The notes beneath the pieces are model-generated. The model ran no database searches, had not been told where the DNA came from, and was given only the letters and a program-made list of their open reading frames with translations. 60,536 nt of DNA from Rubrobacteraceae bacterium (lineage in GTDB: Bacteria; Actinomycetota; Rubrobacteria; Rubrobacterales; Rubrobacteraceae): assembly GCA_035642415.1 (NCBI GenBank), contig DASQSI010000166.1:1-60536 (forward strand), given 5' to 3'. The translations under genes and the position numbers were made by a program. Below are positions 26,199 to 42,005 of this stretch, one piece after another. Position 1 is the stretch's first letter. Each line of letters starts with the position of its first letter.

Positions 26199-26327
26199 AA
26201 TTACACCCCTTTTCCTACTTCAGCCCATCTAGAGGGAACGCAACTACTCAGTGCGTGCGGTAGTCAGTATAGAGGATCGGTCTGGCTCTGGCTGTGAATC
26301 GTTTCGAAGAGACAAGAAAAAGCGCGA

Positions 26328-26353
26328 GCCGTCCCGTAAGCCGGATTCTGCTC
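26328..26353 (-). repeat. Displaced copy of the rnpB 3' end (att direct repeat, left island border)
   Basis: gccgtcccgtaagccggattctgctc is identical (26/26) to 39627..39652. Confidence 0.93.
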
Positions 26354-26466
26354 AAGAAGGCCGCCTCCTTTCGCGCGCCGCATGGTGTCCTAGAGAGCCG
26401 TAAATATCGGTAATCCGGTCACCTCTAGCGAGTCACCTTGTCGTACTATGTGCCAGGGTGTTGGGG

Positions 26467-26508
26467 TCAGAAGAGGTCGTCCATCGCTCGCGCCGCCTCC
26501 TGACGCAT
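26467..26508 (-). pseudogene. Tyrosine integrase extreme C-terminal remnant (MRQEAARAMDDLF*)
   Basis: 26462..26509 matches 28704..28751 at 45/48 nt, and the latter is the end of a recognisable integrase fragment. Confidence 0.7.
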
Positions 26509-26531
26509 GACGGAGACGGCGTTTCCGTCCG

Positions 26532-27317
26532 CTACGCTTTTTCGACTCGGTTTAACGCGTCGCTTTTGTCCGGGCTCGTGTCGGGCTCGGCTGCCTCGAT
26601 TCCGGCCGGAAGCTCGAGTCGTAGGTCCACTTCGTGATCGACATAAAGCTCGCCGCGGGCCATCCGGCACTCGAGCAGGTGCCCACCGGCTCGCCTGTCC
26701 TCGGTGACGAAGTGGAAGTGATAGCCCGGCACGTTGAGCCCTTGGGCATAATTTGGAAAGCGGAAGCCCACGAAGCTGCCCCTGACGTCGCGCAGCTCGA
26801 AGGTCGGTTGGTGCTTGACCACTTCGACGAGGGGCGGGTAGGGCTTGCGCTGCCTGGGCACGCTGCGCGCCTTGACGTAGCGGAAACGGCCGTCTACTCG
26901 AACGGCGTGGCACAGGTTCGCGTCGCCGAGGATGCGGTCCAAGCACGTGCAGAGGTCTACGTAGCCCATCGGGCCGGCGAGCGCCTGGCGCAAGTCAGGC
27001 TCAAAGAAGGTGACAACGGCGAACGGGGTCTTCAACCGCTCATCGACCTCGTAGGCCCTCCCGTCCGCCTTCACCTGGTAGAAGTCACCATCGAGTGCGA
27101 TCATCTCGCCGTCCAACGCGTCAAAAGTACCGAGGCCGAAATCGCCGCTGGCCTGAAGTTCCGCAAAGCTGACGTCACCCTCGTAGTTGCCGCTCAGCAA
27201 GGCGTCGATGGTCGAGGTCTGGAAGAGGGTGTGGTGAGGGTACTTGATGCCCCGAACGTCCCGCTTTCTCAGGTACTCAACATGCAGCGCCCCGATCAAA
27301 GCGGTATCAATCGGCAT
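26532..27317 (-). CDS. budA: Alpha-acetolactate decarboxylase
   Basis: QTSTIDALLSGNYEG, GDFGLGTF..LDGE, RSVP.Q..PY, GYHFHF...GGH motifs. Confidence 0.93.
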   Translation of the reverse strand: MPIDTALIGALHVEYLRKRDVRGIKYPHHTLFQTSTIDALLSGNYEGDVSFAELQASGDFGLGTFDALDGEMIALDGDFYQVKADGRAYEVDERLKTPFAVVTFFEPDLRQALAGPMGYVDLCTCLDRILGDANLCHAVRVDGRFRYVKARSVPRQRKPYPPLVEVVKHQPTFELRDVRGSFVGFRFPNYAQGLNVPGYHFHFVTEDRRAGGHLLECRMARGELYVDHEVDLRLELPAGIEAAEPDTSPDKSDALNRVEKA

Positions 27318-27379
27318 CTAATCTCCTTTCCTTAAAACCTTTACCCGTTCCGCAGCCGCGTAGCTACTAGCCCGTCGCT

Positions 27380-28390
27380 CTATACTGGGGACTGCGCTTC
27401 TAGGGCCGGTATGATCTCCTTCTCATAGGCATCGAGCGTCTCTTCTTTGGCATCGTGCATGAGGTAGATGTTGAACTGGTCCACCCCAAGCTCTTTGAGC
27501 ACTTCGAGCTTCGCTATATGATCCTCGACGGTCCCCAGAACGCAGAAGCGCTCCACGATGTCGTCGGGGACGAAGTCGGTCGAGGGATTGCCGGCCTTAC
27601 CGTGGTGACCGTAGTCGTAGTCCTGCCGGGCTTTTATATAGTCGGTTAGCGCACCCGGGATCTCTCGCCTCTCACCGTAGCGGGCGACAAGATCGGCGAC
27701 GTGGTTGCCGACCATCCCCCCGAACCAGCGGCACTGATTATGCTGGTGGGCTAGGTCACTTCCGGCGTAGGCGGGAGCGGCGACGCAGACCTTGACGCTC
27801 TTCGGGTCGCGACCTGCTGCGATCGCCGCATCGTGGACGTAGCGCATGCTCCACTCGAGCAGGTACAGGTCGGCAAGCTGCAGGATGAAGCCGTCGGCAA
27901 GCCGTCCGGTTAGGGCGAGGGCCTTCGGGCCATAGCCGGCCATCCACACCTCGAGCTTGCCGTTCTTGGCCCAGGGGATTCGTACCTTCTTGCCACCGAT
28001 ATCCGTCTCACGGCCCTCGACGAGGTCCTTTATGATGCGGATGGACTCCTCGACGTGGGCAAGGGTCGCTGGCTTCTTGCCAAGGACGCGCCGGGCCGAA
28101 TCGCCGCGTCCTATGCCGCAGATCGTGCGGTTGCCGAACATGTCGTTTAGGGTGGCAAAGAGGGAGGCCGTAACCGAAGGGTCGCGGGTAGCGGGGTTTG
28201 TGACCAGCGGGCCCACCATCATCCTCTCCGTGGCCGAGAGCATTTGCGAGTTGATGACATAAGGTTCCTGCCAGAGGATATGCGAGTCAAACGTCCATGC
28301 GTGCGTGAAGCCGAGCTGCTCAGCCCGTTTGGTCAACTCGACTACGCGCCAGGCCGGCGGGTCGGTCTGGAAGGTGACTCCAAAGTCCAT
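27380..28390 (-). CDS. LLM-class (probable F420-dependent) oxidoreductase, TIGR03842-like
   Basis: MDFGVTFQTDPPA, WTFDSHILWQEP, GIGRGDSA, WFGGMVGNHVADLV motifs. Confidence 0.88.
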   Translation of the reverse strand: MDFGVTFQTDPPAWRVVELTKRAEQLGFTHAWTFDSHILWQEPYVINSQMLSATERMMVGPLVTNPATRDPSVTASLFATLNDMFGNRTICGIGRGDSARRVLGKKPATLAHVEESIRIIKDLVEGRETDIGGKKVRIPWAKNGKLEVWMAGYGPKALALTGRLADGFILQLADLYLLEWSMRYVHDAAIAAGRDPKSVKVCVAAPAYAGSDLAHQHNQCRWFGGMVGNHVADLVARYGERREIPGALTDYIKARQDYDYGHHGKAGNPSTDFVPDDIVERFCVLGTVEDHIAKLEVLKELGVDQFNIYLMHDAKEETLDAYEKEIIPALEAQSPV

Positions 28391-28708
28391 ACGGTCTCCT
28401 TTCGGGGCTAGGATGGAACCAAAAACAAGGGCAGGTGCCGCCGGCTAGCCAGCTGTCTCTTTCCCGCCAATCGAAAACCTCACCACTGGTTCCGTTTACA
28501 TGCGGAACTTCAGTGACAGTGTTCAAGTTCACGTGGCAAATACTCCCCACCTTGCCAGACCGTTTTCACCGCGAGTGCAGCTTACTACTGAGGTGAGGAA
28601 ACTGCATGAGCTAATGGACTATTCATATAGTTGCAGTGAACTATTTCTGAGGAAGAGAGCTTGCGCCTACCCAGTAGGGGTAAACCCAGTTTATGGTACG
28701 GCGTGGGG

Positions 28709-28830
28709 TCAGAAGAGGTCGTCCATCGCCTGCGCCGCCTCCTGGCGCATGTCTTCGAGGACGCGGACATAGCGCCTCAAGGTCATCGTCGGGTCGGAGT
28801 GCCCCAGCATGTTCGAGACCGTCGGTATGG
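28709..28830 (-). pseudogene. Tyrosine integrase C-terminal fragment
   Basis: IPTVSNMLGHSDPTMTLRRYVRVLEDMRQEAAQAMDDLF contains box II LGH and the catalytic Tyr. The rest of the gene is absent. Confidence 0.85.
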
Positions 28831-28988
28831 GAAGGAACTCTATCTGGTGACCTAGAGGGGTCGGGGTAGAGGTACGATATGCCCTGACGACAAGTTCTGA
28901 AGGGAGGATGTGACATGGCAATAGTACCCCATGACTGGGTGCTGGAGGCCGAACGGTCCAAGGGGTTCTGGAGGAGGTTCTTCGGGAG

Positions 28989-29258
28989 ATGACTATTGAT
29001 CGGGATACCGCAGCAGAAAAGATAGCCCAACTGATCCATAACGAGCTTGACGACATACAGCGGGCTGAGAGGAAGCTTTTTAAGCCCACAGAGGATCCAG
29101 CGGCCTTGGCTCTTCGGAACAAGGAGTCCGAGTTGATCATCCTTACCTATATGCTCGCCGCCAGGGAGCTAGGGTTATTCGATGATGTGGTGAGGCGAGT
29201 GACAATCCCCCCACGCTTGATGGAGGATTTCCGGGGACCGGATCATCCGCTGAGCTAG
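28989..29258 (+). CDS. Hypothetical protein (89 aa)
   Basis: GGAGGAGG upstream and helical protein-like composition; no recognised motif. Confidence 0.55.
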   Translation: MTIDRDTAAEKIAQLIHNELDDIQRAERKLFKPTEDPAALALRNKESELIILTYMLAARELGLFDDVVRRVTIPPRLMEDFRGPDHPLS

Positions 29259-29413
29259 CAGCAGCTAGCAGCACCGTCATTAAACGCTCGTTTGATGCGG
29301 CAGCCGTAACTAAGTCACAGGCACAGCACCGCGCTTATGTAAGAATTGAACTGTTAATCGACGTGGCGGGGTCGACGGGCCCTCCATCTTATATAAGGAG
29401 GTAGAGAGTTCTT

Positions 29414-29701
29414 ATGAGACGTATCAAGATGATGCTAGCGGTGGTATCTGCGGTGGCGACGATGTTGGTGATGGCCGCTCCCGCCATGGCCCAAGACACA
29501 ACGTTCACACCAGCAGAATCAAGCTTTGGCGGAGACACCTTCTTAGGTAGCGGCGGCTTTGTAAACGGCGACTTTGGCGATGGTTTTGTCCCCAACTTTA
29601 TCGACGGCGACTTTGGCAACGGTCTTGACTTCGGCCCAGGAAACGGCCAGTTCGTCATATCAGATCCCTCCAGCAGTTTCGGAAGTGTCAATTTCGACTA
29701 A
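29414..29701 (+). CDS. Small secreted Gly/Phe/Asp-rich protein
   Basis: AAGGAGGT RBS, Sec signal peptide (MRRIK...APAMA|Q), GDFG repeats and a downstream terminator. Confidence 0.8.
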   Translation: MRRIKMMLAVVSAVATMLVMAAPAMAQDTTFTPAESSFGGDTFLGSGGFVNGDFGDGFVPNFIDGDFGNGLDFGPGNGQFVISDPSSSFGSVNFD

Positions 29702-29726
29702 GCCAGATGAGAGTCTCCTAGAGCTA

Positions 29727-29762
29727 AGGGCCGGGGTCGCTAACAACCCCGGCTCTGTTTTT
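29727..29762 (+). terminator. Rho-independent terminator
   Basis: gccggggt/accccggc stem followed by a T-tract. Confidence 0.75.
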
Positions 29763-30217
29763 GCCGGGTGGGAAAGACATGCAGCTATCTGAATAGGATA
29801 TTCACGAGGCGTTCCTGCACCTCGGATGCGCGCTTATCTGCCTATGCTACGCTTAAGCACGATCGCAAGACACCGAAGCAGGCCGCTACAGAACTGTTTG
29901 CGCCCGAGTAGCGGCCCCTTCTTGGGGAAACGAAGCGCCCATCCTTCCCGGTGCACTCCTAAACCCCGTTCCCATCGCCCCTCCGACTAAAGTCCTAGAA
30001 GAGAAACGGCTCACTTGGCCGATGCGCGGCCCGATACTACTGCCATAATGGGAATGCGAAGCGAAAAACAGAGCGAGGCACACAGTCCTCCCTCGCCCCC
30101 ATGCTGGCAGGACGTGCGCGGGCAAATGGCGAGACCCAGACATTAGAAAAACAGGGTGAAAGCAAGCTCTTCGGGAAAAAGGCCACATTTGTAGATGCGC
30201 GTCGCCTCCTGCGCGAG

Positions 30218-30263
30218 CGTAAGGCTTCGTAAACGAACGTAAGGCTTCGTAAACAGTTAATCT
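30218..30263 (+). promoter_or_regulatory. Phased CGTAA direct repeats upstream of the FAD oxidoreductase
   Basis: CGTAA at 30218, 30228, 30238 and 30248, followed by a TAATCT -10-like hexamer. Confidence 0.55.
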
Positions 30264-30294
30264 GTTAGGGATACCGAGAAAGGAGCGATGGGTT

Positions 30295-31725
30295 ATGGCG
30301 GATCTACGAATCGTCACACTCACAGGGGCGGATGCCGCGCTCGGCGAAGCGATCGTAGAACGGTTCGGATCGAGACTGCGTGACGAGTTGCTTCGTCCCG
30401 GCGATGCCGGCTACGAGGAAGCTCGCCTAATCTGGAACGGCTTGATCGATAAGCGTCCAACTCTCATCGCCCGTTGCGTCGGCGTCGCCGACGTCATCGA
30501 CTCAGTGAACTTCGCCCGCGAAAACGATCTCCTCGTAGCGGTGCGCGGTGGTGGTCACAACGTCGCCGGCAACGCCGTCTGCGACGGCGGCCTCGTCATC
30601 GACCTCTCTGCTATGAGAGGGATCCGCGTCGACCCCAAGCGGCGCACGGCCCGCGCCGAAGGAGGCGCTACCTTGGGCGACCTCGACCGTGAGACACAGG
30701 TCTTCGGGCTGGCTACGCCCCTGGGCGTGGTCTCAGAGACGGGGATCGCCGGGCTGACCCTGGGCGGCGGCATCGGCTGGCTACGAAGGAAGTACGGCCT
30801 TAGCTCCGACAATCTCGTCTCGGTGGACGTCGTCACCGCCGACGGCCGCTTCCTCACGGCCAGCGAGACCGAGAACGAAGACCTCTTCTGGGGCATAAGG
30901 GGCGGCGGAGGCAACTTCGGCGTCGTCACCTCCTTCGAGTACCGCCTGCACCCGGTGGGACCTGAGGTGATGTTCTGCTTCGTGCTCTACCCCGGCGATA
31001 GGACCAGGGAGGTGCTGAAGTTCTGCGAAGAGTACGTGGCCGAAGCGCCCGACGAGGTGAGCCCTTTGGGTGTTCTGGGCCACGTCCCTCCCGTGGAGAT
31101 CTTCCCTGAACGGTGGCACGGAGAACCCTACGTGGCGCTCCTGGCCATGTACGTAGGCGACGTAGAGGAGGGCGAGCGAGTGTTGCGGCCCCTGCGCGAG
31201 CTAGGCGGGCCCATCGCGGACCTAAGCGCGAGGATGCCGTACACCGAGGCGCAAGCCGTCCTGGACGAGGACTACCCCAACGGGTGGCACTATTATTGGA
31301 AGTCGGTGAACGTGGACGGCCTTAGCGACGAGGTGATCGAACGCCTCATGGAGCACGCATGGGCAGCCCCCTCCGGCCACTCCACCATCGACGTCTGGTA
31401 CCAAGGCGGCGCCACGAGTCGAGTCGGGGCCGGCGAGACCGCTTTCGGCGACCGCAGTGCCCCCATCCTGATCGGAATCGAGGCCAATTGGGAAAGGCCG
31501 CAAGACGATGAAGCGAACATAGCCTGGGGCAGGAGGTGTTTCTCCGACATGCGACGCTTCTCTGACGGCGGGATGTACCTGAACTTCCCCGGCTTCTTAG
31601 AAGAAGGGGACCAGCTGCTGCGCGATGCCTACGGCGCGAACTACGAGCAGCTGGTGGCGCTTAAGAACAAATATGACCCTACCAACCTGTTCCGCCTCAA
31701 CCAGAACATAAGACCCACCGCCTAA
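30295..31725 (+). CDS. FAD-binding oxidoreductase (BBE/GlcD-like)
   Basis: RGGGHN (covalent FAD His), GLTLGGGIG, RGGGGNFGVVT, YLNF and KYDPTNLF motifs. Confidence 0.93.
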   Translation: MADLRIVTLTGADAALGEAIVERFGSRLRDELLRPGDAGYEEARLIWNGLIDKRPTLIARCVGVADVIDSVNFARENDLLVAVRGGGHNVAGNAVCDGGLVIDLSAMRGIRVDPKRRTARAEGGATLGDLDRETQVFGLATPLGVVSETGIAGLTLGGGIGWLRRKYGLSSDNLVSVDVVTADGRFLTASETENEDLFWGIRGGGGNFGVVTSFEYRLHPVGPEVMFCFVLYPGDRTREVLKFCEEYVAEAPDEVSPLGVLGHVPPVEIFPERWHGEPYVALLAMYVGDVEEGERVLRPLRELGGPIADLSARMPYTEAQAVLDEDYPNGWHYYWKSVNVDGLSDEVIERLMEHAWAAPSGHSTIDVWYQGGATSRVGAGETAFGDRSAPILIGIEANWERPQDDEANIAWGRRCFSDMRRFSDGGMYLNFPGFLEEGDQLLRDAYGANYEQLVALKNKYDPTNLFRLNQNIRPTA

Positions 31726-31771
31726 GAATACTTCAGGGGTCGCCTCAGCAAGGGAAGAAAGGAGACAGTGT

Positions 31772-32598
31772 ATGCAACAGGATCCTTCCCAGCTTCGGTT
31801 CGCTACGACGCAGCTCACGCCGGGTCCGCGAATGCCCTACGCCGAGCAGGGAGATCCAACAGGGGAAGCCATCATCTTCCTTCACGGGTACTCCGATTCG
31901 TGGTTCTCCTTCAGCCGGGTGTTTCTCTTACTCTCTCCCGCCTACCATGCCTTTGCGTTCCACCAGCGCGGACACGGAGACTCGGATAAGCCCGAATGCT
32001 GCTACACGGTGGACGACTTGGCCGTCGACGTAGATGCGTTTATGGACGCGGTCGGGATCAACGAAGCGACCATCGTTGGTCATTCTGGAGGCACTTTGAT
32101 CGCGCCACGGGTGGCGCTGAGCTATCCACAGTGCGTTAGTCGTCTCGTCCTGATAGGGGCAGCAATAATGGGAGCGAATAACGAGACAATGTTGGGGCTA
32201 GGGGAGGAGGTGCGCGCGCTCGAAGATCCCATCCCGTCCGAGTTCGCGCGGGAGTTCCAGGTGAGCACGATCCACCATCCGGTTCCGGGCGAGTTCCTCT
32301 CGCCGGCGGTCTCCGCGAGCCTCAAGCTCCCGACTCACGTCTGGCGCGATTATATGGAGGGGGTGATCCTTACACCCGATCATGCGGCCCGGCTTGGTGA
32401 GATTAACGCGCCGACGTTGATCATGTGGGGAGAGCAGGACGCCGTCTTCCCACGCGAAGAACAGGACCGGCTTGCGAGTACGATTCCCGATGCCACGTTG
32501 AGGGTGTACCCCGCGACCGGCCACGCGGTGCACTGGGAGCCCCCGAGCAGGTCGTCTGGGATGTGGAGGCGTTCATGAAAAACACACGTCTCGCCTAG
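31772..32598 (+). pseudogene. Alpha/beta hydrolase with a probable frameshift near the C-terminus
   Basis: HGYSDS, GHSGG, WGEQD and GHAVHWE motifs. A frame shift in the C5 run at 32540-32544 restores the typical tail PEQVVWDVEAFMKNTRLA* (stop 32598). The track ORF ends at 32578. Confidence 0.75.
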
Positions 32599-32818
32599 TC
32601 CTTTACCTGGAGACTAGCCAATAGAGCCGGGGCTGTGGTGCCCAGCTCACCGGTTTTGAAACGCACTCTAAGTATTAGGCGTGGTGACTAAATTGTTATA
32701 TCGCAGCAGGAGATGTGTTGTGTTTTAGTCACCCCACAGAGAGTAGACCCTCGGCGCCGACGCTCGCGACGCCCTATGCCCTCTAGGGGTAGCTCACCGG
32801 GGCTAGGGACAAAGGCGC

Positions 32819-33040
32819 TTAGCTGTAGGAGAGCTGGCGGATAGTTTCAGCGTCTACGCCACACACCTCGCCGCCAGGGCTATGCCCAGAAGACCACCAA
32901 CTAACCTCGCCATCTTCGGGCAGTTCTCTGGTCACAAGGTGCTGCCGGTGGATGACGAGCGCTCGTTCTCCACCGTACTCACACACCTCTCCCTCTTGGC
33001 CACACTTCGGGCAAATAACTATATCGCCATACTGAGCCAT
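32819..33040 (-). CDS. Small putative zinc-binding protein (73 aa)
   Basis: GAGGAG RBS + ATG; CPKCG...H...C pattern; lies between a plus and a minus site. Confidence 0.65.
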   Translation of the reverse strand: MAQYGDIVICPKCGQEGEVCEYGGERALVIHRQHLVTRELPEDGEVSWWSSGHSPGGEVCGVDAETIRQLSYS

Positions 33041-33527
33041 CTATTCTCCTCGCACTATAAGGGCCTAAGCCCTCCTTTAAGGTTCTCTCCAGCATAATTG
33101 CCCGGGATCGTTCAAACGAAACATTGGAGGCGCAGCCTGCAACCTATGGGCAAAGGCCGGACAGCACTAAAACCTCCATAGCTCCGGTCTGTTGTCGTAG
33201 GGGATGCCGAGCGCAAAGAAAAGAACGGGATAGCTTGTGAGAAACTGTATTCTCAAAACCTATCCGCCTTCTGGCGTTACAAGCACTAGAGCCTTAGCTT
33301 CGAGAATGTGTAAAAGATAGTCCATCTGGACCATGCGCCTGGCGCATTCCTTGTGGCCTAGAATCCTAGAGCACGTTTATAAGAAGGCGGTGAGAGATTT
33401 GCTCGTTACCCCGGTCCCACAAGGTAGGGGTTGAAGATAGAAAAGAAGCATACTTCGCAAAGTATTTGCGGGAGATAGCGCCACCCCTGCCGACGGGGTC
33501 TATAGGCAGCGGACCGGGGCTATGGGC

Positions 33528-33568
33528 AAAAGAAAGGGCCGGGCAGAAGAGCACCTATACCCGGCCCC
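33528..33568 (-). terminator. Rho-independent terminator abutting a repeat site
   Basis: gggccggg/cccggccc stem followed on the minus strand by TTTCTTTT. Confidence 0.7.
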
Positions 33569-33596
33569 TGCTTACTTATAACTCCTCCTACATAGA

Positions 33597-33878
33597 TCAC
33601 TTTTGTGGAGCTGGGCAGGTCGCCTCAGTAGGTGGCGATGTAATCTGGTCTGAGTGCTCAACGGCAGGAGTACCCGTCGGCGGCAACGGCAGGTTGCTGC
33701 CTTGTACAGTATTGTGCTCCTTGATGGCACCTATGGCGGTCGGGTTGTTACCTCCTGCGTTCTCACTCTGTCCGCACTGACCTCCTGGAAGGAAACTATG
33801 GTGGAAGGCCAGCGCTGGCGAAGCAGTCCCCGCTATCAATAACCCTGCCACAACCATAGCTAACAGTGCTCGTCGCAC
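33597..33878 (-). CDS. Small secreted protein (93 aa)
   Basis: AAGGAGGTGA RBS + GTG at 33878, signal peptide (RRALLAMVVAGLLIAGTASPALA|F), two Cys. Confidence 0.8.
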   Translation of the reverse strand: MRRALLAMVVAGLLIAGTASPALAFHHSFLPGGQCGQSENAGGNNPTAIGAIKEHNTVQGSNLPLPPTGTPAVEHSDQITSPPTEATCPAPQK

Positions 33879-34261
33879 GCTTTCACCTCCTTTCACTTTC
33901 CGCATTCGTCCGGAAGTCCGTTATACGAATGCATCCTTGGAACGGTTTCGTTAGAGCCCCGGTCAATACAAGATACGGAAGGGGCTGGCGCTAGAAAAGA
34001 AGCTAGGCAGCGGACCGGGGCTATGAGCAAAAGAAAAGGGGCCGGGCGTAATGGCGATAAATAGGGTGTAAATCGGGCCCGGCCCGAGACGAGCTGGCTG
34101 CTATGCATGTGGAGCGGATAATCGGTGCCAGCCCGGCTCTTATATTCGGGCTGGCGGGTTATTCTCGTGGTTGGAAAGCCTTGTGGGTTGCGCCAGCCCG
34201 GTTTATATAGGCACTCTACGCAACGCGAAGGGCTGCTGTCATGATCCAAATGGACTATTTT

Positions 34262-34438
34262 TCAAAAGCTACAGTCGTCTCCCTGCGGATCAGCTCTCCT
34301 CCTCTCCCAGGCATACCGGCACAGCGGGGCACGGTCATAGCCATCTCTTAGCTTGGCTCCGCAGTACCAGCAGACGCCTGCAACTTCTTCCTCCGACTCA
34401 GCGAACCGGGCATCTCATATTGCGTCTTCTTCGTCCAC
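34262..34438 (-). pseudogene. Degenerate small Cys-motif (zinc-finger-like) ORF
   Basis: VDEEDAI*DARFAESEEEVAGVCWYCGAKLRDGYDRAPLCRY...CSF*, with an in-frame TGA at 34415-34417. Confidence 0.4.
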
Positions 34439-35467
34439 CTTCTGATTCTCTAGGACACACGCTAATAGAAAATAGTCAATTAGGAGCTGGCGCTGGCCAA
34501 TAGCCCCGATCCGATAGGTCTAGGGGTTGGTGGTAGAAAATCAACCACCAGTAAAAATAGTGCATTTGGGTCATGCGTCGGCTTTTCGCTTGCTTCATCC
34601 TACACCCTAGACCCTGATGCCCGTATCCTCCTTTTCCCTAACTACTACCGACTCTATTACCGATACGGGCATCGGGTCTTACAAAGAGGGGCCGGACGGG
34701 GAGACCACTACATGTACCAGATGTGTGGGGAGGTCCGGCCCCTTTAACGCTACGGTACACACAATCGGGCGCACGGAACAAGGTATACCTCGCTTAACCT
34801 AAAGGCACTTACGCCCTATCTATCGTTGATTGCAGCCTCTGCCACAAAGTTAATGTTTCCAGGCCAAAGTTCTGCACTATTCATACGTAGTCGGACGTCC
34901 TACGCGGCGGTATACAATGCCTATGCTGTGGATAAACCGCTATATATCGTGGAAAACTCCCCCCTTCCCTACAATCCACAGTTGAGCCCGGCGGCACAGT
35001 CTCCCCATTGCTCCCTGTCGCCGGGCTCCTCATTACTTTACCTGCTCAGGGCTCGGCTACGCTAGACCTTTTCCTAGGCGTTTCTATGGCACAGCGCAAA
35101 AGAAATCCGAGGTCCCGGAGTAATGAACGGGGTATGCCAGTTGGGTGGGACCTCGGCGATAAAAAGGGGGCGTGGGGAGAAAGCTCGAGGAGACTATCTA
35201 GGGACGGAGTACTCAGACTCGGGAAAGAGTTCTGAGCATATCTCATCACGCACCCCATGGCCTGGCATCCTAGAGCACGTTTATAAGAAGGCGATGAGAG
35301 ATCTTCCCATAGCCCCGGTCCGATCGGCTATCCCTCGATACCCACCGAAGGAGGACGAGACGCTCCTGAATGTGGCGACCAAAACATCTAATCGTGTTAT
35401 TCGCAGTTGCAGATTCAGTCACCACATAAGCTGTGGCAAGGATCGTCTTCGATCACCGTACCCTGCC

Positions 35468-35719
35468 CTATAGGCAGCAGACCGGGGTTATGGGCAATAG
35501 AGAGGGCCGGAGGCTTGGTTGGTGTAAGCGCTCCACCCCCTCTTTTAGCGCCCGGTGTGCGGCCCCGCTGCTGGAACGCTTGGGGCCTCTGGTTCGGCAC
35601 GCAAGGCAGCTAGCGTAATAGTACGATCCAGCTTCGGTGGGGGTTACCACGATAGGGTAACTATGATCGCACCTGCCCTCACTACTAACATAAGGGGTAC
35701 GTAGTTCGCGCTCCATCAT
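35468..35719 (-). CDS. Small zinc-ribbon protein (Lar-like pattern)
   Basis: AAGGAG upstream of ATG 35719. CDH...YYASCLACRTRGP...AAHRAL resembles the CxxC..GP..A..A of Lar-type ribbons. The ORF reads into the repeat site. Confidence 0.5.
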   Translation of the reverse strand: MMERELRTPYVSSEGRCDHSYPIVVTPTEAGSYYYASCLACRTRGPKRSSSGAAHRALKEGVERLHQPSLRPSLLPITPVCCL

Positions 35720-35825
35720 ATAGAGCCGTCTCCTTTTCTGGTCCTTTCCCCGTACGGTCACGATCATAGGGGCGTCTTAGAGACAATTCATGGTCCAAAT
35801 GGACTATTTTTCCAAATGTGGAAGT

Positions 35826-35866
35826 AGAAAAAGAGCCGGAGTTCCTGATATAGAACCCCGGCCCTC
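35826..35866 (-). terminator. Probable terminator of the ABM-like gene
   Basis: gccggagttc/gaaccccggc stem with a T-tract on the minus strand. The right arm also resembles a minus repeat site. Confidence 0.55.
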
Positions 35867-35911
35867 TCCAGGCCAACCTGTCGCTAGTGGCAGATTTTAG
35901 AAAGGTTTTGC

Positions 35912-36259
35912 TTATCCTCCGGTCAGATGGTCCATTAGCCCTCTGTCTCGTTCTCCACGCGCCAATCGTAGTTCGAGGATGGGAACTTCATAGCTCTCTA
36001 CGCCCGCTAGCGCTGCGCCCGTAGCTTCTGCAGTCTCCACCCGTAAACGGTTAGCTTCCTCTTCAGTAGCCTGCAGGGCCCGCTCACTTTCCCAAAGGGA
36101 AATGCCGATCACCTCGCCTGTCTCGCTGTCACCAAGAGCGATGAACCCGTTGTAGCCGTCCTGCTGTTGGATTCGCGGTATGATTCGCTCCCTGAGATGG
36201 CGCAAGCCCTCATCCATCTGCTCTGGGGATCCTCCAAGCCTGGTCAGTCGGGCAAACAT
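35912..36259 (-). CDS. ABM/Dabb-fold-like protein
   Basis: MFARLTRL...IIP.IQQQDGYNG....D..TGEVIGISLWESE pattern; GAGG RBS. Confidence 0.75.
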   Translation of the reverse strand: MFARLTRLGGSPEQMDEGLRHLRERIIPRIQQQDGYNGFIALGDSETGEVIGISLWESERALQATEEEANRLRVETAEATGAALAGVESYEVPILELRLARGERDRGLMDHLTGG

Positions 36260-36602
36260 CTTGGTGCTTCGCCTCCTCTCTCCCGCTTTCCCCAGCGGGC
36301 CAGTAAGTACGCTCTGTCATGATGCCAGCTAGTGAGGGTCGATGCAGAAAACACCCGGATGCCCTCGCAGAGCCCTACAGGTAGCGGACCGGGGCTAGAG
36401 CAAACGAGAGCGCCGGGTGTTCGAGCGGGATGAACCTCCAGCTTCCTTGAGTCGGCCCCTTGCCTTGTGTCCAGCACCCCCTCGCCCTTATCTTCCCTAC
36501 CGCTTCTTTCCGTCGTGGCCTCTTTCACGTTTCTTTGGGGATGCATCGAGCTTCGACAAGTGCCATCCTTCATAAAAACGCAAGCAAGGGAGAAGGAAGT
36601 CG

Positions 36603-37085
36603 ATGAAGATCGAAGCCAAGCTGGAGGAACTGGGGTTGACGTTGCCACAACAAATGAAGACTCCACCGGGAGTCTACTTGCCTTTCTCATGGGTGCGGGT
36701 ACACGGTAACCGCACCTACATCTCCGGGCATGGTCCTCAGAACCCGGATGGCTCGCTGGCAGGACCATTCGGCAAAGTAGGAGCGGAAGTACCGTCGGAA
36801 CAGGCATACCAGGCAGCGCGTCTAACGGCGCTGTCGATGCTCGCTAGCCTCAAGCGTGCGTTGGGAGATCTGGATCGAGTAAGGGCATGGCTGAAGGTCT
36901 TTGGAATGGTTAATTCGGCGCCCGGCTTTGCCCAGCAACCGAGCGTTATCAATGGCTTCTCGGACTTGATAATCGAGGTGTACGGCCCTGAAGTGGGAGG
37001 GCACGCCCGCTCAGCAGTAGGCCTGGCGGAGCTGCCGTTCGGCATCCCAGTCGAGATCGAGGCCCAAGTCGAGGCCAGCGGTTAG
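36603..37085 (+). CDS. RidA/YjgF family protein
   Basis: YISGHGP, VINGFSDL, HARSAVG...LP...PVEIE motifs. Confidence 0.92.
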   Translation: MKIEAKLEELGLTLPQQMKTPPGVYLPFSWVRVHGNRTYISGHGPQNPDGSLAGPFGKVGAEVPSEQAYQAARLTALSMLASLKRALGDLDRVRAWLKVFGMVNSAPGFAQQPSVINGFSDLIIEVYGPEVGGHARSAVGLAELPFGIPVEIEAQVEASG

Positions 37086-37119
37086 CAAACCGATCCTGAG
37101 TACGATCACAACTAGTACC

Positions 37120-37406
37120 CCGCGGCCCACGCAATCTGCACAAAGCAAGTCGCCAACAAACCACCCGAGAAGTTCATCTTCCTCTACGACTTCCGAGAGG
37201 ACTCGGTTCAGAACCCTATGCCCGCAGCAGGAGCAACTACTGCTCTTAGCGTGCGCGATGGTCGCCGCCGTTAGATGCTTGTAGGTGACGTTCCTGATCT
37301 GAAAGTCCGAGCACCGACAAGTCTCGCGAGCAACGTCAACCTCATAAACCCTACCCGCAACCGCGTCGCTCGTGATGTGCCAGACACTATCCGAACCTCT
37401 GGCGAG
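37120..37406 (-). pseudogene. Remnant of a SWIM zinc-finger / zinc-ribbon protein
   Basis: Manual translation VYEVDVARETCRCSDFQIRNVTYKHL (SWIM CxC..CKH with C>Y), then CSCCG...CADC. No start codon. Confidence 0.6.
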
Positions 37407-37549
37407 CTAGCGAGGAGACTTTGACGAACCTATGAATTCTCATAGGAACGTTCGCAGGAGTGTCTACGGTAGGGGAAAGTGTAATAGTATGCGGGTAAGA
37501 CGTGGGCTACACCTTCAAGCCCCAAGCTTAGCAGGAGAATTGAAGAGCC

Positions 37550-38890
37550 GTGCTCCAACGCATCCGCAATCGACTCACTTTAGGCTACGTCGGCATCTTC
37601 GCGCTGATCCTAATGGTCTTAGGAGCGGTTGTGGTAGTGAGCTTCTGGCGGCACACAGCCGCCCAGCAGGATGAACTGCTCGCCCAAAAGGCGGAGGGAG
37701 CATCCGACTACATGAAGGTCTTGCTGCGCCGGGACTACGAAGGGACACTAAACCGCGAAGAGCGAAACCGTCCTCCCGACGCTCCCGTGGGCCCCCTCCA
37801 GGCGAGCACGGAGTCAGACATCGGCGTGATCGCTGTGGTGCCACCCGCCAGCGGGGACAGCGAGGGCACCAGCAGGGTCTTGGACTCAAGCTCCTCGTCT
37901 GCGTCTTTTGGCCTGCCCTTCGAAGAGCTGGCTCAAAGGACCGCCCGAGAAGGGGTGACGATCACTAAGACGGTTCAAGGGCCCAACGACGAAGAAGTGC
38001 GGGCGGTAAGCATCCCTGTAAGCGGGTCTGAAGGGCAGGTAGGCGTCGTGCAAGCCGCGCAGTTGCGCCAGGTAGTCTGGGAGAGGGTGCGCAACCTGCT
38101 CCTCATCCTAGTACCCGTCGGTCTCGGGGGACTCCTGTTAGCAGGCCTCGGCGGACTGTACATGGCCCGCCGGGCGATGCAGCCAGTCGAGGACTCCTTC
38201 AGACGCCAGCGCACCTTCATCGCCGACGCCTCCCACGAGCTAAAGACCCCTTTAGCGCTTGCCAAAATCCACACGGAGCTGATGCGGCGTAACCCCACCG
38301 ACCCGGAAAACGAGGAGATCCTCGAGGAGCAGCTCGCCGAGATCGACCGGATGGACACACTACTCTCCGACTTGCTCGTCCTAGCCCGGCTCGACGCCGG
38401 CAGACTCGGCGTGGAGAACAAGCCCTTCGACCTTGCAGCTGTCTCGGCTGAGACAACCGGGCGCTTCCTCAAGAGAGCGGCCGAGGAGGGAGTCCACCTC
38501 GAGGTAGAGGTCTCAAGCGAGCTTCCGGCATGCGGCGACTCCGAACGTACCAGCCAGATTCTGGCCGCGCTGCTCGACAACGCCATAAGGCATACACCTA
38601 AAGGTGGCAGCGTAACCGTCTCCGGGCATACCTTAGACGGCTGGGTAGTGCTGAGCGTGAAGGACACTGGCTCGGGGATCCCCTCAAAGCACCTGCCGCG
38701 CATCTTCGACCGGTTCTACCGGGCCGAGGAGGCTCGCACACGAAACGGTGGAGGCACGGGTCTGGGGCTTGCCATTGCCCGGGATTTGGCCCGCGCCCAA
38801 GACGGTGACCTTGTGGCCGGCAACACACCCGATGGCGATGGGGCGAGCTTCACGCTGAAGCTGCCCATGGGTCCCTCACCAAGTTCTTAG
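37550..38890 (+). CDS. Membrane sensor histidine kinase (OmpR-system type), orphan
   Basis: Two TMs, H-box DASHELKTPL, N-box DNAIRH, DTGSG, FDRFYR, GTGLGL. Confidence 0.93.
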   Translation: MLQRIRNRLTLGYVGIFALILMVLGAVVVVSFWRHTAAQQDELLAQKAEGASDYMKVLLRRDYEGTLNREERNRPPDAPVGPLQASTESDIGVIAVVPPASGDSEGTSRVLDSSSSSASFGLPFEELAQRTAREGVTITKTVQGPNDEEVRAVSIPVSGSEGQVGVVQAAQLRQVVWERVRNLLLILVPVGLGGLLLAGLGGLYMARRAMQPVEDSFRRQRTFIADASHELKTPLALAKIHTELMRRNPTDPENEEILEEQLAEIDRMDTLLSDLLVLARLDAGRLGVENKPFDLAAVSAETTGRFLKRAAEEGVHLEVEVSSELPACGDSERTSQILAALLDNAIRHTPKGGSVTVSGHTLDGWVVLSVKDTGSGIPSKHLPRIFDRFYRAEEARTRNGGGTGLGLAIARDLARAQDGDLVAGNTPDGDGASFTLKLPMGPSPSS

Positions 38891-39548
38891 TGCCCCTACT
38901 GTTGGCCATTATTAGGGCTGGGTAGCAGCGCGCGAGGGCCTGATAAGCTAAGCGCCCCCAACCAACAGCTGCAAGGCGTAGCGCGCGACAGAAAGCCGAC
39001 ACTTATCAGATTTGACGCCGATTGCAGTTGCGTGGCTCACATTTGTTACCTACTCCGGGCTGCCTCTAAACCTCGAGCTACACCCGTCCCCTAAGGAAAA
39101 GCGGATGTTTGGCGGTATCAGGGGACGGGCCGATAAAAGATAGCGTCTCGTTGGAGATAAGCGTCAGAGAAGATATCCAACGAGGCTATCTGTTGGTTGC
39201 TATTCTACACCCCCACGTACTACCTGCTACATAAAAGCCCATGGGCAAGAGAGACGCACCGGACTGGAAGGACATTGAAGGTTGTTGGTCCCACGAAGGG
39301 CAGTACACCAGCCCGGTAATGAAATGTGATCCTACCATGTTAGCAATGACAAAACGTAGAGGCCGTAGCACCTTTGCCCAAGCATCCGGGACATGTACAC
39401 CCTATGTTGTAGCTATTAGCCTCCCCTCCTCCGAGGTGTTGCTACATAAGAGAAAAGGAGAATCCTACTCGCCCGCCTTCTGCCTAAACCCCTACCCATC
39501 GCCTTGCTCTATTCGGCACCTCCTCTTCTCGCAATGAGGTTTTAGACG

Positions 39549-39572
39549 GTTGGGGTAAAACGTGGGGTCAAA
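39549..39572. repeat. Tandem 12-bp repeat, putative integrase arm-type sites
   Basis: gttggggtaaaa cgtggggtcaaa lies 55 bp from the att core. Related tggggtcagaa / aggggtaaac occur at the ends of both integrase remnants (26462, 28676, 28704). Confidence 0.55.
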
Positions 39573-39621
39573 GGGGCCTAAAGAACCGGAGAAAAGCAGC
39601 GTTTGTCCTGCAAATGAGAAA

Positions 39622-40033
39622 GTCGGGCCGTCCCGTAAGCCGGATTCTGCTCTATCCCGCCATCCATCTCCGGGAGAGATTCTCCCGGGCTCCTCTTAGA
39701 GGAGCCGCGCCTACCAGCCCGGAGCCCGAAGGCTCCGGGACAATTTGGCTTGCTCGCACCGGTGGTTTACCTGGCCGGCCCCTCGCGGAGTACCGCCGGT
39801 GGGCTCTTACCCCACCCTTTCACCCATCACCTGTGTCCGGAAGATCCGAACCATCGGCTGGTCTGCTCTCTGTTGCACTTGACGTAACGGGGAGCTTACG
39901 CTGCCCCGTCCCTCGGGTTCTTAGCCCGAGCGGCCTTTCCAAACCGGAAGCTTCCGGTCCTCGCGAGTCCGGACTTTTCTCTGCGCCGCAGCTTTGCTTC
40001 GGGGCGCAGCGACGGGTCGGACGGCCCGAGCCT
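39622..40033 (-). ncRNA. rnpB: RNase P RNA (bacterial type A)
   Basis: Minus strand has GAAAAGTCCGGACTC, GTGCAACAGAGAGCAGACC, GTGAAAGGGTGGGGTAAGAGCCCACC, GGTAAACC and CAGAATCCGGCTTAC. P1 TCGGGCCGTCC/GGACGGCCCGA. TATAAT at 40041-40046. Confidence 0.96.
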
Positions 40034-40041
40034 GGGGCATA

Positions 40042-40446
40042 TTATACCGCCGGACCACGTCCGAGGAGTACGATCTTCGTGGGGCTCAGGCGTATCTCGA
40101 CCTTGTCGACCCGGCTCCAGCAGCCCTGCCAGCGCGGGCTGTCCGCGACCGCCGGGTCGAACCAGACCCCCGCGCTCCCCTCAAGACCTCCGTTGTGTTC
40201 GAGGGCCCCTTCATAAGCTTCATAGTCCGTAGGGTCGGCGAGCGGGTCCCGCAGATCCTTGCGGTAGATGCCCTTGCGGGATCGGAAGGACTGCACGCTG
40301 GAAGCGCTCGTCCCGAGAGCGTTTGCGATCCACTCGTCGCTTTTGCCCTCGTCCACCCAGCGCTTCACGTCGTCTACGAATTTCCTGAGTGAGACCCTCT
40401 GGTTTATGCCCACGCCGCCTCCCATCCTCTTGTCGTACAAAGGCAT
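40042..40446 (-). CDS. Hypothetical protein with N-terminal HTH-like motif
   Basis: GKSDEWIANALGTSASSVQSFR resembles an HTH. Start uncertain (GTG at 40413 possible). Confidence 0.65.
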   Translation of the reverse strand: MPLYDKRMGGGVGINQRVSLRKFVDDVKRWVDEGKSDEWIANALGTSASSVQSFRSRKGIYRKDLRDPLADPTDYEAYEGALEHNGGLEGSAGVWFDPAVADSPRWQGCWSRVDKVEIRLSPTKIVLLGRGPAV

Positions 40447-40505
40447 CTTACGTATCCGGCGAACGGATTTCCAGAGTGGCGCGGCGGTCGTAGTAAACTA
40501 GGTTT

Positions 40506-40799
40506 ATGGACACTTTTATCGGCTTCGTGGTCGAGGTCCTTCGCCTAGTGCCCCTGATCCTCGCCTTCTATGTGCCGGCCCTCATGGGGTTGGTCCTTTT
40601 GAAGGAACGCGGGGAGAGTTTCAGGATCAAAGCCGGCCTGGTCTTCGTCATAGGTTTCGGGGGAATCGTCGCGGCGCAATTGTTGCTGCGTAGCCTCTCT
40701 GTGCTCCATATGGCCCAGACCGTCGCGATCTCGCTCCTTCAGATCGCGGCCGCGCTCCTCTTCGCGGCGCTCACCGTCTACAAGCTGGCCGACTACTAG
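40506..40799 (+). CDS. Small membrane protein
   Basis: Three hydrophobic helices. Confidence 0.7.
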   Translation: MDTFIGFVVEVLRLVPLILAFYVPALMGLVLLKERGESFRIKAGLVFVIGFGGIVAAQLLLRSLSVLHMAQTVAISLLQIAAALLFAALTVYKLADY

Positions 40800-41995
40800 G
40801 AGGCTTGGGTCTCGAGGATAGATTTAACCTCTTCACGGTCACGGTCGAGTGTGTAAAAGGTTATGTTAGCCTTAGCTTCTTTGTAAGGTTTGGTGCGCAC
40901 GGGCGTGAGGTAGCCAGCGTTTAGCATAGCCTCTATGACCTCCTGGATCTCCTCCTGCGTTAGCTCGAGCTCCCCGCGTTCTTCCAGGTCGCGGATACCT
41001 TCGAAGATCTCCACGGATGATGCTGGCTCCCGCAGGCTCGCAATGGTCTTGCAGATGGTTCCCAGCTCGTAGGGTGTCAGGTCCTCGACGAGGTCGAAGT
41101 CCTGCACCGCCGGCAACCCCGCCGGTTCCCCAATCCCGTCTCCCTGGGACCGTTCGTCCGACCGAGCTGCAGCCTCTCTCGGCTCCTCGCCAGCCAGATC
41201 AGACTCGGAGGTTTCGGGAACCTCCTCATCCGGAAGGTAGACGTGCAACTCCAAATCCTGGTCGACCGTGTTCACGAGTCCCCGACGCTCGGCCTCGACC
41301 ACGAAGTCCTTGAACTTCCTAAAGCCCTCGTTGCGCTCGTCGAACGAGCCGAGCTGCACGATCATCTGCTGCTTGACCTGCCCAAGGACCCGCGTTTTAC
41401 CACTCTTCTTCAGCGTCTCGACGGCCCGAACGAGTTCCCTGTACGGGTCAGCCGTCTCCTTCTTCAACTCCTTATCCTGGGCGCGAGCCGCGCGCTCCTC
41501 CTCGAGCAACGAAGAATAGGAGATGAAGTGGTCAGCCGTTTCGATCAGATGATATGAGGTCGCCTCGGAGACCCCAATCACCACAACCCGCTTGCCCCGG
41601 CTCCGCAAGAGGTTCACGAGCGGGATGAAGTCCCCGTCCCCGGTTACCAGAACGTAGGTATCCACCTGCGGATGGGCATGTAAAAAGTCTGAGCATTCCA
41701 CCGCCAGCATAACGTCTATCGAATTCGTCCGGCGCTTCTGGGAGCGGCCGCCAGGGAAATACCGCGCGGAGATATAACGTGGGGAGATACCGTTGGAGTA
41801 GAGCGTCGGGGGTGCGTCGCGAAAGTCGCCGTCGGTCCAGTCAGCGTAAGCCATCGCGGAGACGATACGCCCGTACTCACGGGCCTTCTCCAGGATGGCC
41901 GAGACGTTGGGCTTCGCCCCGTACTCCGTAACCGTAGAGATGTAGATGTTCTCCCAGTCGATAAAAATTGCTAGATCTTCGGTCATAACGGTCAT
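40796..41995 (-). CDS. NYN (LabA-like) domain protein with LOTUS/OST-HTH
   Basis: IFIDWEN, NSIDVMLAV, LVTGDGDFIPL; FDERNEGFRKFKDFV LOTUS-like segment. Start set at ATG 41995. Confidence 0.88.
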   Translation of the reverse strand: MTVMTEDLAIFIDWENIYISTVTEYGAKPNVSAILEKAREYGRIVSAMAYADWTDGDFRDAPPTLYSNGISPRYISARYFPGGRSQKRRTNSIDVMLAVECSDFLHAHPQVDTYVLVTGDGDFIPLVNLLRSRGKRVVVIGVSEATSYHLIETADHFISYSSLLEEERAARAQDKELKKETADPYRELVRAVETLKKSGKTRVLGQVKQQMIVQLGSFDERNEGFRKFKDFVVEAERRGLVNTVDQDLELHVYLPDEEVPETSESDLAGEEPREAAARSDERSQGDGIGEPAGLPAVQDFDLVEDLTPYELGTICKTIASLREPASSVEIFEGIRDLEERGELELTQEEIQEVIEAMLNAGYLTPVRTKPYKEAKANITFYTLDRDREEVKSILETQAS

Positions 41996-42005
41996 AAACG
42001 ACTCA

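What the first reader, a model, noticed from the sequence alone, without database searches (positions are those of the whole stretch)
32778..36404. Cassette-like array of small genes bracketed by an inverted ~30-bp site (candidate new gene-capture system)
Seen: at least ten copies of one site, consensus CCCTA-N6/7-CGGACCGGGGCTATGGGCAA. Plus copies are at 32778, 33500, 34003, 35465 and 36372; minus copies at 33176, 33399, 33951, 34494 and 35304, largely alternating. Plus copies share a TAGGCAG-like centre. Three minus copies carry an extension reading AGGGGYTG-N4-TAGAAAA on the + strand. Plus-to-minus pairs enclose 0.4-0.5 kb units that each hold one unrelated minus-strand ORF (zinc-binding 73 aa, secreted 93 aa, decayed Cys-motif ORF); a Lar-like ribbon follows a fourth plus site. 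Three plus sites are immediately followed by a terminator-like hairpin. Minus-to-plus gaps are short (about 20-135 bp). Known: alternating inverted sites around unrelated single genes is the architecture of Xer/pdif modules, and site-plus-gene arrays define integrons, but this site matches neither dif nor attC (RYYYAAC/GTTRRRY). Inference: these are recombination or transposition ends of self-contained expression cassettes, moved by an enzyme encoded elsewhere.
Basis: partly seen in the sequence, partly recalled or inferred. Interest (0 to 1): 0.88.

Follow-up and report, generated by a model that had tools for sequence, protein, structure and literature searches.

The report
Repeat marking swappable gene-cassette joints
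The short repeat is real and occurs about 90 times across this soil bacterium's genome at joints where small gene modules have been swapped, and in relatives it sits directly beside dif-like recombination sites, so the stretch is likely a partly decayed piece of a family-wide gene-cassette system that would be run by Xer-like recombinases, though the repeat itself is not shown to be an enzyme's cutting site.

Summary
All ten copies are there. The 17-bp core (YGGACCGGGGCTATGGG) is not private to this window: about 90 copies lie on 48 contigs, and it is enriched in other genomes of the family (Rubrobacteraceae by record titles). Strict alternation fails genome-wide (direct 22, outward 12, inward 10). 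Flanks are exchanged at the core: 66 one-sided against 2 two-sided homologous pairs, two precise presence/absence cases of units between direct copies, and strain variants of this locus that break 6 bp before and inside a core. Breakpoints spread over about 70 bp, not one base. In relatives the core sits 5 or 19 bp from 28-bp dif-like sites that form co-oriented, roughly one-gene-per-kb arrays and share an arm with a site beside a conserved recombinase at the replication terminus. In this genome that coupling is nearly gone (1 of 89). A second dif-like class (36 copies, one inside this array) matches a site in front of an intact recombinase gene on another contig. No enzyme specific to the core was found. 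Best reading: a cassette-end motif of tyrosine-recombinase cassette stacks. A dedicated unknown enzyme remains possible.

The parts
32793..32809 (+). core copy 1 (A type, degenerate); left edge of the array
   Evidence: a contig of run X1 shares 32753-32787 and then switches to unrelated DNA
32819..33040 (-). 73-aa CxxC-bearing cargo ORF
   Evidence: only sub-cut-off Pfam zinc-ribbon hits; a 93%-alike copy exists in runs X4 and X6
33139..33156 (+). variant site with CTATGGGCAAA but without the GGACCGGGG part
33175..33191 (-). core copy 2 (B type); a strain variant lacks about 19 bp between two TAG triplets here
   Evidence: break at 33181
33233..33260 (+). class-2 dif-like 11-6-11 site GCTTGTGAGAA-ACTGTA-TTCTCAAAACC, followed by a conserved tail to 33284; likely target of the recombinase on contig C3
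   Evidence: 36 copies in the genome; same-type site about 25 bp before the C3 recombinase gene
33313..33335 (-). M2 palindromic repeat (other window copies at 34240, 34553, 35789)
   Evidence: 26 copies genome-wide; role unexplained
33402..33526 (.). outward-facing core pair (B 33402-33418, A 33510-33526) with a 91-bp interior that recurs as a unit on other contigs
33597..33878 (-). 93-aa ORF with signal-peptide-like start, ending in a hairpin next to the A core
   Evidence: no Pfam or PHROG hit; signal peptide judged by eye
33950..34027 (.). outward-facing core pair (B 33950-33966, A 34011-34027), 44-bp interior
34262..34440 (-). broken Cys-motif ORF (in-frame stop); paralogous modules on C195, C98, C86, C326, C226 with other neighbours
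34497..34513 (-). core copy (B type, unpaired)
35306..35494 (.). outward-facing core pair (35306-35322, 35478-35494), 155-bp interior
35468..35767 (-). 99-aa CxH/CxxC-bearing ORF, with paralogues on C198, C335, C46, C122, C225
   Evidence: no family hit
35912..36259 (-). 115-aa ABM-like ORF; a 90%-alike copy lies on C285
   Evidence: (PF03992 below cut-off)
36385..36401 (+). core copy 10 (A type); right edge of the array

Best explanation
The 17-bp repeat marks the ends of small gene modules that have been exchanged between places and strains, and the window is likely a partly decayed stack of such cassettes, built by tyrosine recombinases that would act at neighbouring 28-bp dif-like sites, with the repeat likely serving as a cassette-end (accessory) motif and as short homology for later swaps. 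Shown: (1) the repeat sits between ORFs at module joints; (2) its two flanks are shuffled; (3) in relatives it is welded 5 or 19 bp outside the TTCTCGGAAGT arm of dif-like sites that form co-oriented arrays; (4) that arm is shared with a site beside a conserved recombinase at the replication terminus; (5) this genome has a second dif-like class, enriched next to the repeat, with a matching site in front of an intact recombinase gene. Inferred: (6) cassettes enter as circles by recombination at the 28-bp sites; (7) where those sites were lost, as for most copies in this genome, exchange continues by recombination or slippage between the 14-22 bp of identity that two copies share.
For: Fixed offsets: of 129 class-1 sites in 19 loci of G053/G032, the reversed core follows the arm at +5 in 22 and +19 in 11; 24 of 33 cores in those loci and one G033 locus have the arm within 40 nt; the fused arm+core pattern occurs in 12 of 104 genomes in 5 genera, control 0. 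Arrays: 104 of 108 neighbouring sites co-oriented, median 1005 bp apart, 12 pairs share one flank only and switch at the site; 63 of 94 units hold one gene (crude gene calls). Counts of core and class-1 site correlate over 97 published genomes (rho 0.67; kin are not independent). The 318-aa recombinase is in 82 of 104 genomes, at 43-55% of the chromosome from dnaA in 10 of 10 long assemblies, with a dif-like site near it in 7 of 7 regions fetched. Class 2: 36 sites, 13 within 2 kb of a core against 4.7% of the genome; 19 exact strand-hits here against at most 2 in any of 103 other genomes; a same-type dyad lies upstream of 10 of 20 loci of the C3 recombinase family. Breakpoints near cores are spread out, as short-homology exchange would give.
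Against: In this genome only 1 of 89 cores has a class-1 arm beside it and 2 of 89 have a class-2 site within 120 nt. No class-1 site scores in window 26000-40500. The 356-bp unit that is present in L019 and absent in L110 carries no dif-like site, so it moved without one. The 318-aa recombinase was not found in this 95%-complete assembly. Loss of the 28-bp site from so many units is not parsimonious. The core is conserved between lineages whose flanks share nothing, which passive carriage explains poorly. The loci were chosen because they held a core. No recombination was observed directly.
Confidence: 0.45

Rival explanations
1. The repeat is itself the crossover site of an unidentified site-specific enzyme acting in trans: an asymmetric ~29-bp site CCCTA-N6/7-YGGACCGGGG-CTATGGG at which cassettes are inserted, deleted and swapped.
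For: 42 pairs share only the 3' flank, 24 only the 5' flank and 2 both, among 199 non-redundant sites. Precise loss or gain of a 152-bp unit (L025, L038 against L030, L096; crossover between -1 and +13) and of a 356-bp ORF-bearing unit (L019 against L110) between direct copies. Strain variants of this locus break 6 bp before the plus core and at +11 of the minus core, both just after a TAG. 88 of 89 cores here lack a class-1 arm.
Against: Alignment ends near cores are 4.1-fold enriched but spread from -35 to +35. The two precise events need only 14 and 22 bp of identity, which slippage can use. No candidate enzyme: no gene bracketed by cores encoded a recombinase or transposase among 128 and 150 ORFs scanned (the second set is 150 of 321 candidates). 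The central 10 bp are replaced by other sequences in otherwise homologous modules.
Confidence: 0.28
2. The outward-facing pair is a small non-autonomous transposon (MITE-like, about 45-200 bp, ends TA-GCCCCGGTCC ... GGACCGGGGC-TA) that prefers to land beside dif-like sites and terminators; lone cores are its remnants and the cassette look is a by-product.
For: Pairs with 88-119 bp interiors recur in this genome and in many metagenome loci. The A of CTA is invariant in 90 copies. The 5-bp offset from a recombinase arm is the distance reported for xrs-targeting IS1202-family elements (bioRxiv 2022.12.17.520857, passages).
Against: Only 5 of 45 dif-adjacent cores have a partner within 220 bp. Interiors are not one sequence family, no 5-6 bp target repeat flanks the pairs, and no clean empty site for a whole pair was found. 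IS630 ends in this genome differ; no ISNCY/IS1202 transposase in 5 genomes.
Confidence: 0.15
3. The repeat is a protein-binding (operator-like) site in island DNA, copied along with a few ancestral leader and terminator modules; the shuffling is ordinary recombination between repeats with no cassette machinery.
For: 0 of 89 cores lie inside strong ORFs; many follow hairpin-plus-T-tract elements (19 of 89); pair spacings of about 90, 101 and 111 bp differ by helical turns (read by eye).
Against: No orientation rule relative to the next gene (A type 12 away, 9 into; B type 13 and 11; crude gene calls). It does not explain the fixed weld to dif-like arms.
Confidence: 0.12

Closest known systems
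Acinetobacter dif modules bounded by pdif (XerC/XerD) sites (PMC13141974, passages read)
   Same: Accessory genes between 28-bp arm-6 bp-arm sites related to the host's chromosomal site; variable spacers; module shuffling; enzyme supplied in trans.
   Different: pdif sites are asymmetric XerC/XerD sites, mostly inversely oriented, on plasmids. The class-1 sites here are chromosomal, run head-to-tail (104 of 108) and number in the tens to over a hundred per genome.
Integrons and CALINs (IntI, attI, attC; features recalled, not from a call)
   Same: Long co-oriented stacks of mostly single-gene units inside islands; unrelated cargo.
   Different: No IntI over the TIGR02249 cut-off in this genome; no RYYYAAC/GTTRRRY ends; units carry their own terminators; the core pairs fold only modestly as single strands (z -1.3 to -2.7).
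IntA with attA/attD of Rhizobium etli (PMC4928290, passages read)
   Same: A simple tyrosine recombinase acting on a palindromic site with a divergent centre. The arm TCCGATAA printed for attA also occurs in the terminus site of several Rubrobacteraceae. The C3 recombinase family has such a dyad upstream of its gene.
   Different: attA has a 7-bp centre and two copies on plasmids; here 6-bp centres and 36 (class 2) or about a hundred (class 1) chromosomal copies. Protein kinship to IntA was not tested.
xrs-targeting IS1202-family insertion sequences (bioRxiv 2022.12.17.520857, passages read)
   Same: An element end placed 5-6 bp from a recombinase arm, in fixed orientation.
   Different: Those ends begin TGT and make 5-6 bp target repeats; neither is seen here, and the transposase family was not found.

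Membership tests
pdif/dif modules | 28-bp site of two 11-bp arms and a 6-bp spacer at module joints | tested here: inconclusive
Met for class-1 sites in relatives (88 of 129 with 6-bp spacer) and for class 2.
pdif/dif modules | site resembles the host's chromosomal dif | tested here: met
   Class-1 sites share the TTCTCGGAA(G/A)(T/C) arm with the terminus site; applies to relatives and to other contigs, not to the window's core.
pdif/dif modules | alternating inverted orientation (C and D modules) | tested here: not met
   Class-1 arrays 104 of 108 co-oriented; cores 22 direct, 22 inverted.
pdif/dif modules | canonical XerC and XerD | tested here: not met
   The two family-wide recombinases score far below the XerC and XerD cut-offs (149 and 108 bits against 335).
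pdif/dif modules | recombination shown at the site | not testable with these tools
   needs an assay
integron | IntI integrase | tested here: not met
   17 weak matches, none over cut-off, in the own genome, 95% complete
integron | attC ends RYYYAAC/GTTRRRY (recalled) | tested here: not met
   core and flanks lack them; no Rfam family in the array
IS1202 (ISAba32 group) | ends begin TGT and 5-6 bp target repeat | tested here: not met
IS1202 (ISAba32 group) | ISNCY-type transposase present | tested here: not met
   0 of 5 genomes
IS1111/IS110 | 11-13 bp subterminal inverted repeats 7 and 3 bp inside the ends, around a DEDD transposase (PMC11187229) | tested here: not met
   no PF02371 in the own genome; the 5 copies in 4 of 5 other genomes are not bracketed by core pairs
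REP/REPIN with RAYT | Y1 transposase and a palindrome after a GTAG-type foot (recalled) | tested here: not met
   no PF01797 in the own genome, one partial hit in 1 of 5 others; the core is not palindromic
IS630/Tc1-type MITE | TA target duplication and ends shared with a resident transposase | tested here: inconclusive
   TA flanks every pair, but resident IS630 ends differ and no empty site for a whole pair was found
IS91/ISCR or relaxase-driven exchange | Y2 transposase or TrwC relaxase present | tested here: inconclusive
   TrwC 0 of 5 genomes; Y2 search rang in no control either, so it is uninformative; other relaxase families not searched

The most novel reading that the evidence does not exclude
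Rubrobacteraceae run an undescribed, layered gene-capture system: hundreds of head-to-tail cassettes stacked at copies of their own terminus recombination site, a second private recombinase-site pair in this species, and a third 17-bp site that is recombined on its own by a so far unknown enzyme and has taken over cassette exchange in this lineage.
Probability: 0.25. Interest if true: 0.9.

Novelty: new variant of a known kind. Interest (0 to 1): 0.7.

Why it matters
It points to an integron-scale way of collecting accessory genes in a class of soil Actinomycetota, built on dif/lox-like sites without IntI or attC. The same analysis yields a candidate chromosome-dimer-resolution recombinase and site for Rubrobacteria, a class reported to lack the Xer subgroup (bioRxiv 542381, passages), and a recombinase-site pair (C3 gene, class-2 site) that can be tested directly. 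If the 17-bp core has its own enzyme, that would be a new site-specific recombination system. I found nothing on these repeats in the held library; subscription journals are largely not covered.

Tried and rejected
Rfam on 26000-42000: only RNase P RNA. Viral contigs: 0 matches to the core. First genome-collection scan with a 24-nt pattern: 0; the 16-nt scan was mostly single chance hits plus Rubrobacteraceae records. Enzyme searches that gave no cognate: Y1, Y2 (20, uninformative), IS630, large serine recombinase (2 matches, one intact on a contig without cores), IS110, IntI, TrwC, ISNCY. The tRNA-targeting integrase tails near many cores mark the islands but end at tRNA genes, not at cores. 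Target-site duplication around either kind of pair: none beyond TA. A general CCTA-N-CTATGRG dyad was only weakly enriched (13 against 4 at the best spacing). Sigma-70 scan: 1 promoter-like site against 2.2 expected, so promoters in the pair interiors are unsupported. Gene-orientation rule: none with crude gene calls. Synteny: flanking genes match different contigs in 21 congeners, no empty locus found. Sequencing runs: no RNA holder listed; all runs are contigs, so circles and inversions could not be tested; the joints mostly reflect paralogous repeats and were not used. Protein atlas did not answer, so the cargo ORFs stay unassigned. One search failed on a coordinate slip, so the two family-wide recombinases were not compared. 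Rows dropped before the counts: four own-genome hits judged chance (C64, C76, C220, C246; three weak window copies added, giving 89), nine loci judged unrelated chance hits (L017, L026, L034, L043, L057, L066, L074, L079, L152), two duplicates (L058, L146) and all non-Rubrobacteraceae-looking loci. My note says 11 of 20; the output shows 10 of 20.
Full report
1. The observation. All ten copies are present. The shared core is YGGACCGGGGCTATGGG. Plus copies carry a CTATAGGYAG 5' flank and usually a hairpin with an A-run on the 3' side (type A). Minus copies carry TTCTTTTCTACCACCAACCCCTA-N6/7 on the 5' side (type B). The ORFs, unit lengths and hairpins are as described; the 'Lar-like' label found no family support. 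Six of nine neighbours alternate.

2. It is a genome-wide and family-wide repeat. An iterated matrix finds 90 copies on 48 contigs against 2 in a Markov-4 simulation; the exact 12-mer occurs 53 times against 0 reversed. None of 89 lies inside a strong ORF. Neighbours within 2.5 kb are direct in 22 cases, outward in 12 and inward in 10, so alternation is not a rule. Thirteen of 97 published genomes of the family have 8 or more exact copies, above the highest control count of 6. Named records with the motif are titled Rubrobacteraceae or Rubrobacter. A metagenome scan gave 107 stretches. The neighbourhoods are islands with tRNA-targeting integrase tails and mixed accessory genes.

3. Modules are exchanged at or near the core. 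Among 247 sites (199 after collapsing same-locus copies and requiring flanks), 42 pairs share only the 3' flank, 24 only the 5' flank and 2 both (dropped rows are listed under Tried and rejected). Of 1296 self-alignment ends near cores, 162 (12.5%) fall from -15 to +32 against 3.0% expected, but they spread over about 70 bp, and 11 alignments run through a core. Two near-identical locus pairs differ by exactly the unit between direct copies: 152 bp (L025, L038 against L030, L096; crossover between -1 and +13) and 356 bp with a small ORF and hairpin (L019 against L110). At this locus, a contig of run X1 at the same depth as the window form switches to unrelated DNA after 32787, and a 93%-alike copy of the zinc-ORF unit in runs X4 and X6 (one study) leaves the window sequence at 33181, continuing with what looks like the same terminator flank without the 19 bp between two TAG triplets. 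X1 may be the source sample, and contigs can be misjoined at repeats.

4. In relatives the core is welded to dif-like sites. In G053 and G032 a commoner repeat appears: CTATTCACCC, a variable left arm, a 6-bp (less often 8-bp) variable spacer and the arm TTCTCGGAAGT (class 1). In 19 loci chosen for holding a core there are 129 such sites; 104 of 108 neighbours are co-oriented, median spacing 1005 bp; 12 pairs share one flank and switch at the site, 3 share both. 63 of 94 units hold one gene, and 59 of 93 genes run with the site (crude calls). The reversed core follows the arm at +5 (22 sites) or +19 (11), at other offsets in 5, and is absent from 91. The fused pattern occurs in 12 of 104 genomes, 5 genera, control 0, not in this genome. 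The same arm is half of a site next to a 318-aa tyrosine recombinase found in 82 of 104 genomes, which lies 43-55% from dnaA in 10 of 10 long assemblies. I infer that this is the chromosomal dif. Its best solved relatives are XerA and XerD, but it is below the XerC/XerD cut-offs. A second conserved recombinase (87 of 104) may be its partner.

5. In this genome. Class-1 sites are present (129 strand-hits against 4 shuffled) but only 1 of 89 cores has the arm beside it and none scores in the window region. The 318-aa gene was not found (assembly 95% complete). A second class, GCTTATGAGAA-N6-TTCTCAAAAGC, has 36 copies, 13 within 2 kb of a core against 4.7% of the genome, one at 33233-33260. It is nearly private to this genome. 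A perfect-type copy lies about 25 bp before the likely start of a full-length tyrosine recombinase on contig C3, the only full-length one among 22 matches. Ten of 20 loci of that recombinase family have a similar dyad upstream. The family is large and widespread (6494 of 7998 scored candidates).

6. How it most likely works. Shown: points 1-5. Inferred: cassettes are stacked by tyrosine recombinases at 28-bp sites; the core is a cassette-end motif carried beside them; after loss of the 28-bp site, copies still exchange through their short identity (0.45). The main rival is that the core is a crossover site of its own (0.28): its independence from dif-like sites here and the L019/L110 case favour this, while the spread of breakpoints and the lack of an enzyme count against it. 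A MITE (0.15) or an operator (0.12) explains less.

7. Comparison with what is known. It works like pdif modules and like integron arrays but fails membership in both (no XerC/XerD over cut-off, co-oriented sites, no IntI, no attC). It is not IS1202, IS1111 or REP/RAYT by the tested features. Papers seen as passages only: bioRxiv 2022.12.17.520857, bioRxiv 542381 (76), PMC3025954 (no mention of Rubrobacter), PMC13141974, PMC11187229, PMC4928290. Other papers were seen only as search listings; two searches listed none. No supplement was read; Supplementary table 2 of bioRxiv 542381 may bear on which recombinases Rubrobacteria were assigned. attC and REP features are recalled. Earlier scan notes describe similar stacks in other soil bacteria; they are unchecked leads, and one prompted the IntA comparison. 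There were no notes on this genome or sequence; one search gave two unrelated notes.

8. Unpublished genomes. The tallies include G005, G008, G012, G016, G048, G105 or G108; L003 and L006 (G005) are among the 247 sites. One search leaves them out. No conclusion rests on them alone; one of the 12 genomes is G105.

9. Verdict. Real feature, interpretation partly supported, new variant of a known kind, interest 0.7. The window is one small, worn example; the larger result is the family-wide cassette system and its candidate recombinases.

Noticed in passing
L244, L281, L282, L425-L431 (G066, G067, G113, G115, G064, G101, G004, G059, G057): A 318-aa tyrosine recombinase in 82 of 104 genomes lies 43-55% of the chromosome from dnaA in 10 of 10 long assemblies, with a dif-like site nearby: a candidate dimer-resolution system for Rubrobacteria.
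   Followed up: yes
L039:1141-1971; own genome C169:1-492: A second family-wide Xer-like recombinase (about 280 aa, 87 of 104 genomes) with unusual residues around the catalytic motifs (VLRH, LGVRD); possible partner of the first.
   Followed up: partly
L224-L241 (G053, G032): Head-to-tail arrays of CTATTCACCC-N-arm-N6-TTCTCGGAAGT sites about every kb; several start beside integrases of the pSAM2/ICE type.
   Followed up: yes
G053 contig C8 (listing): Class-1 sites read + at 1-14 kb and - at 565-1272 kb, with the terminus-type site at 137 kb between them; orientation may follow the replication direction.
   Followed up: no
window 33313-33335, 34240-34262, 34553-34575, 35789-35811: M2 repeat CATGRYCCAAATGGACTATTTTT with an 8-bp dyad, 26 copies genome-wide; unexplained.
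   Followed up: partly
window 39038-39280: Another multicopy intergenic module (more than ten contigs) just before the RNase P RNA gene at 39620-40028.
   Followed up: no
window 26467-26600 and 28709-28850: Two integrase C-terminal remnants ending in the same AMDDLF tail.
   Followed up: no
window 32650-32673: A short stretch that looks like an IS5-family end (label recalled, judged by eye) just left of the array.
   Followed up: no
L059:4725-10710: Satellite-like gene run (HTH, 848-aa DUF3987 primase-helicase, small ORFs) next to an inward core pair 53 bp apart.
   Followed up: no
L005, L006, L013, L027, L033, L038, L054, L082: The commonest ORF family near cores is an HTH_17, excisionase-like protein (9 members); a candidate binder of the core.
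   Followed up: no
own genome C285:2790-3290 (L357): A broken XerC-like recombinase gene of a different family about 2 kb from two cores.
   Followed up: no
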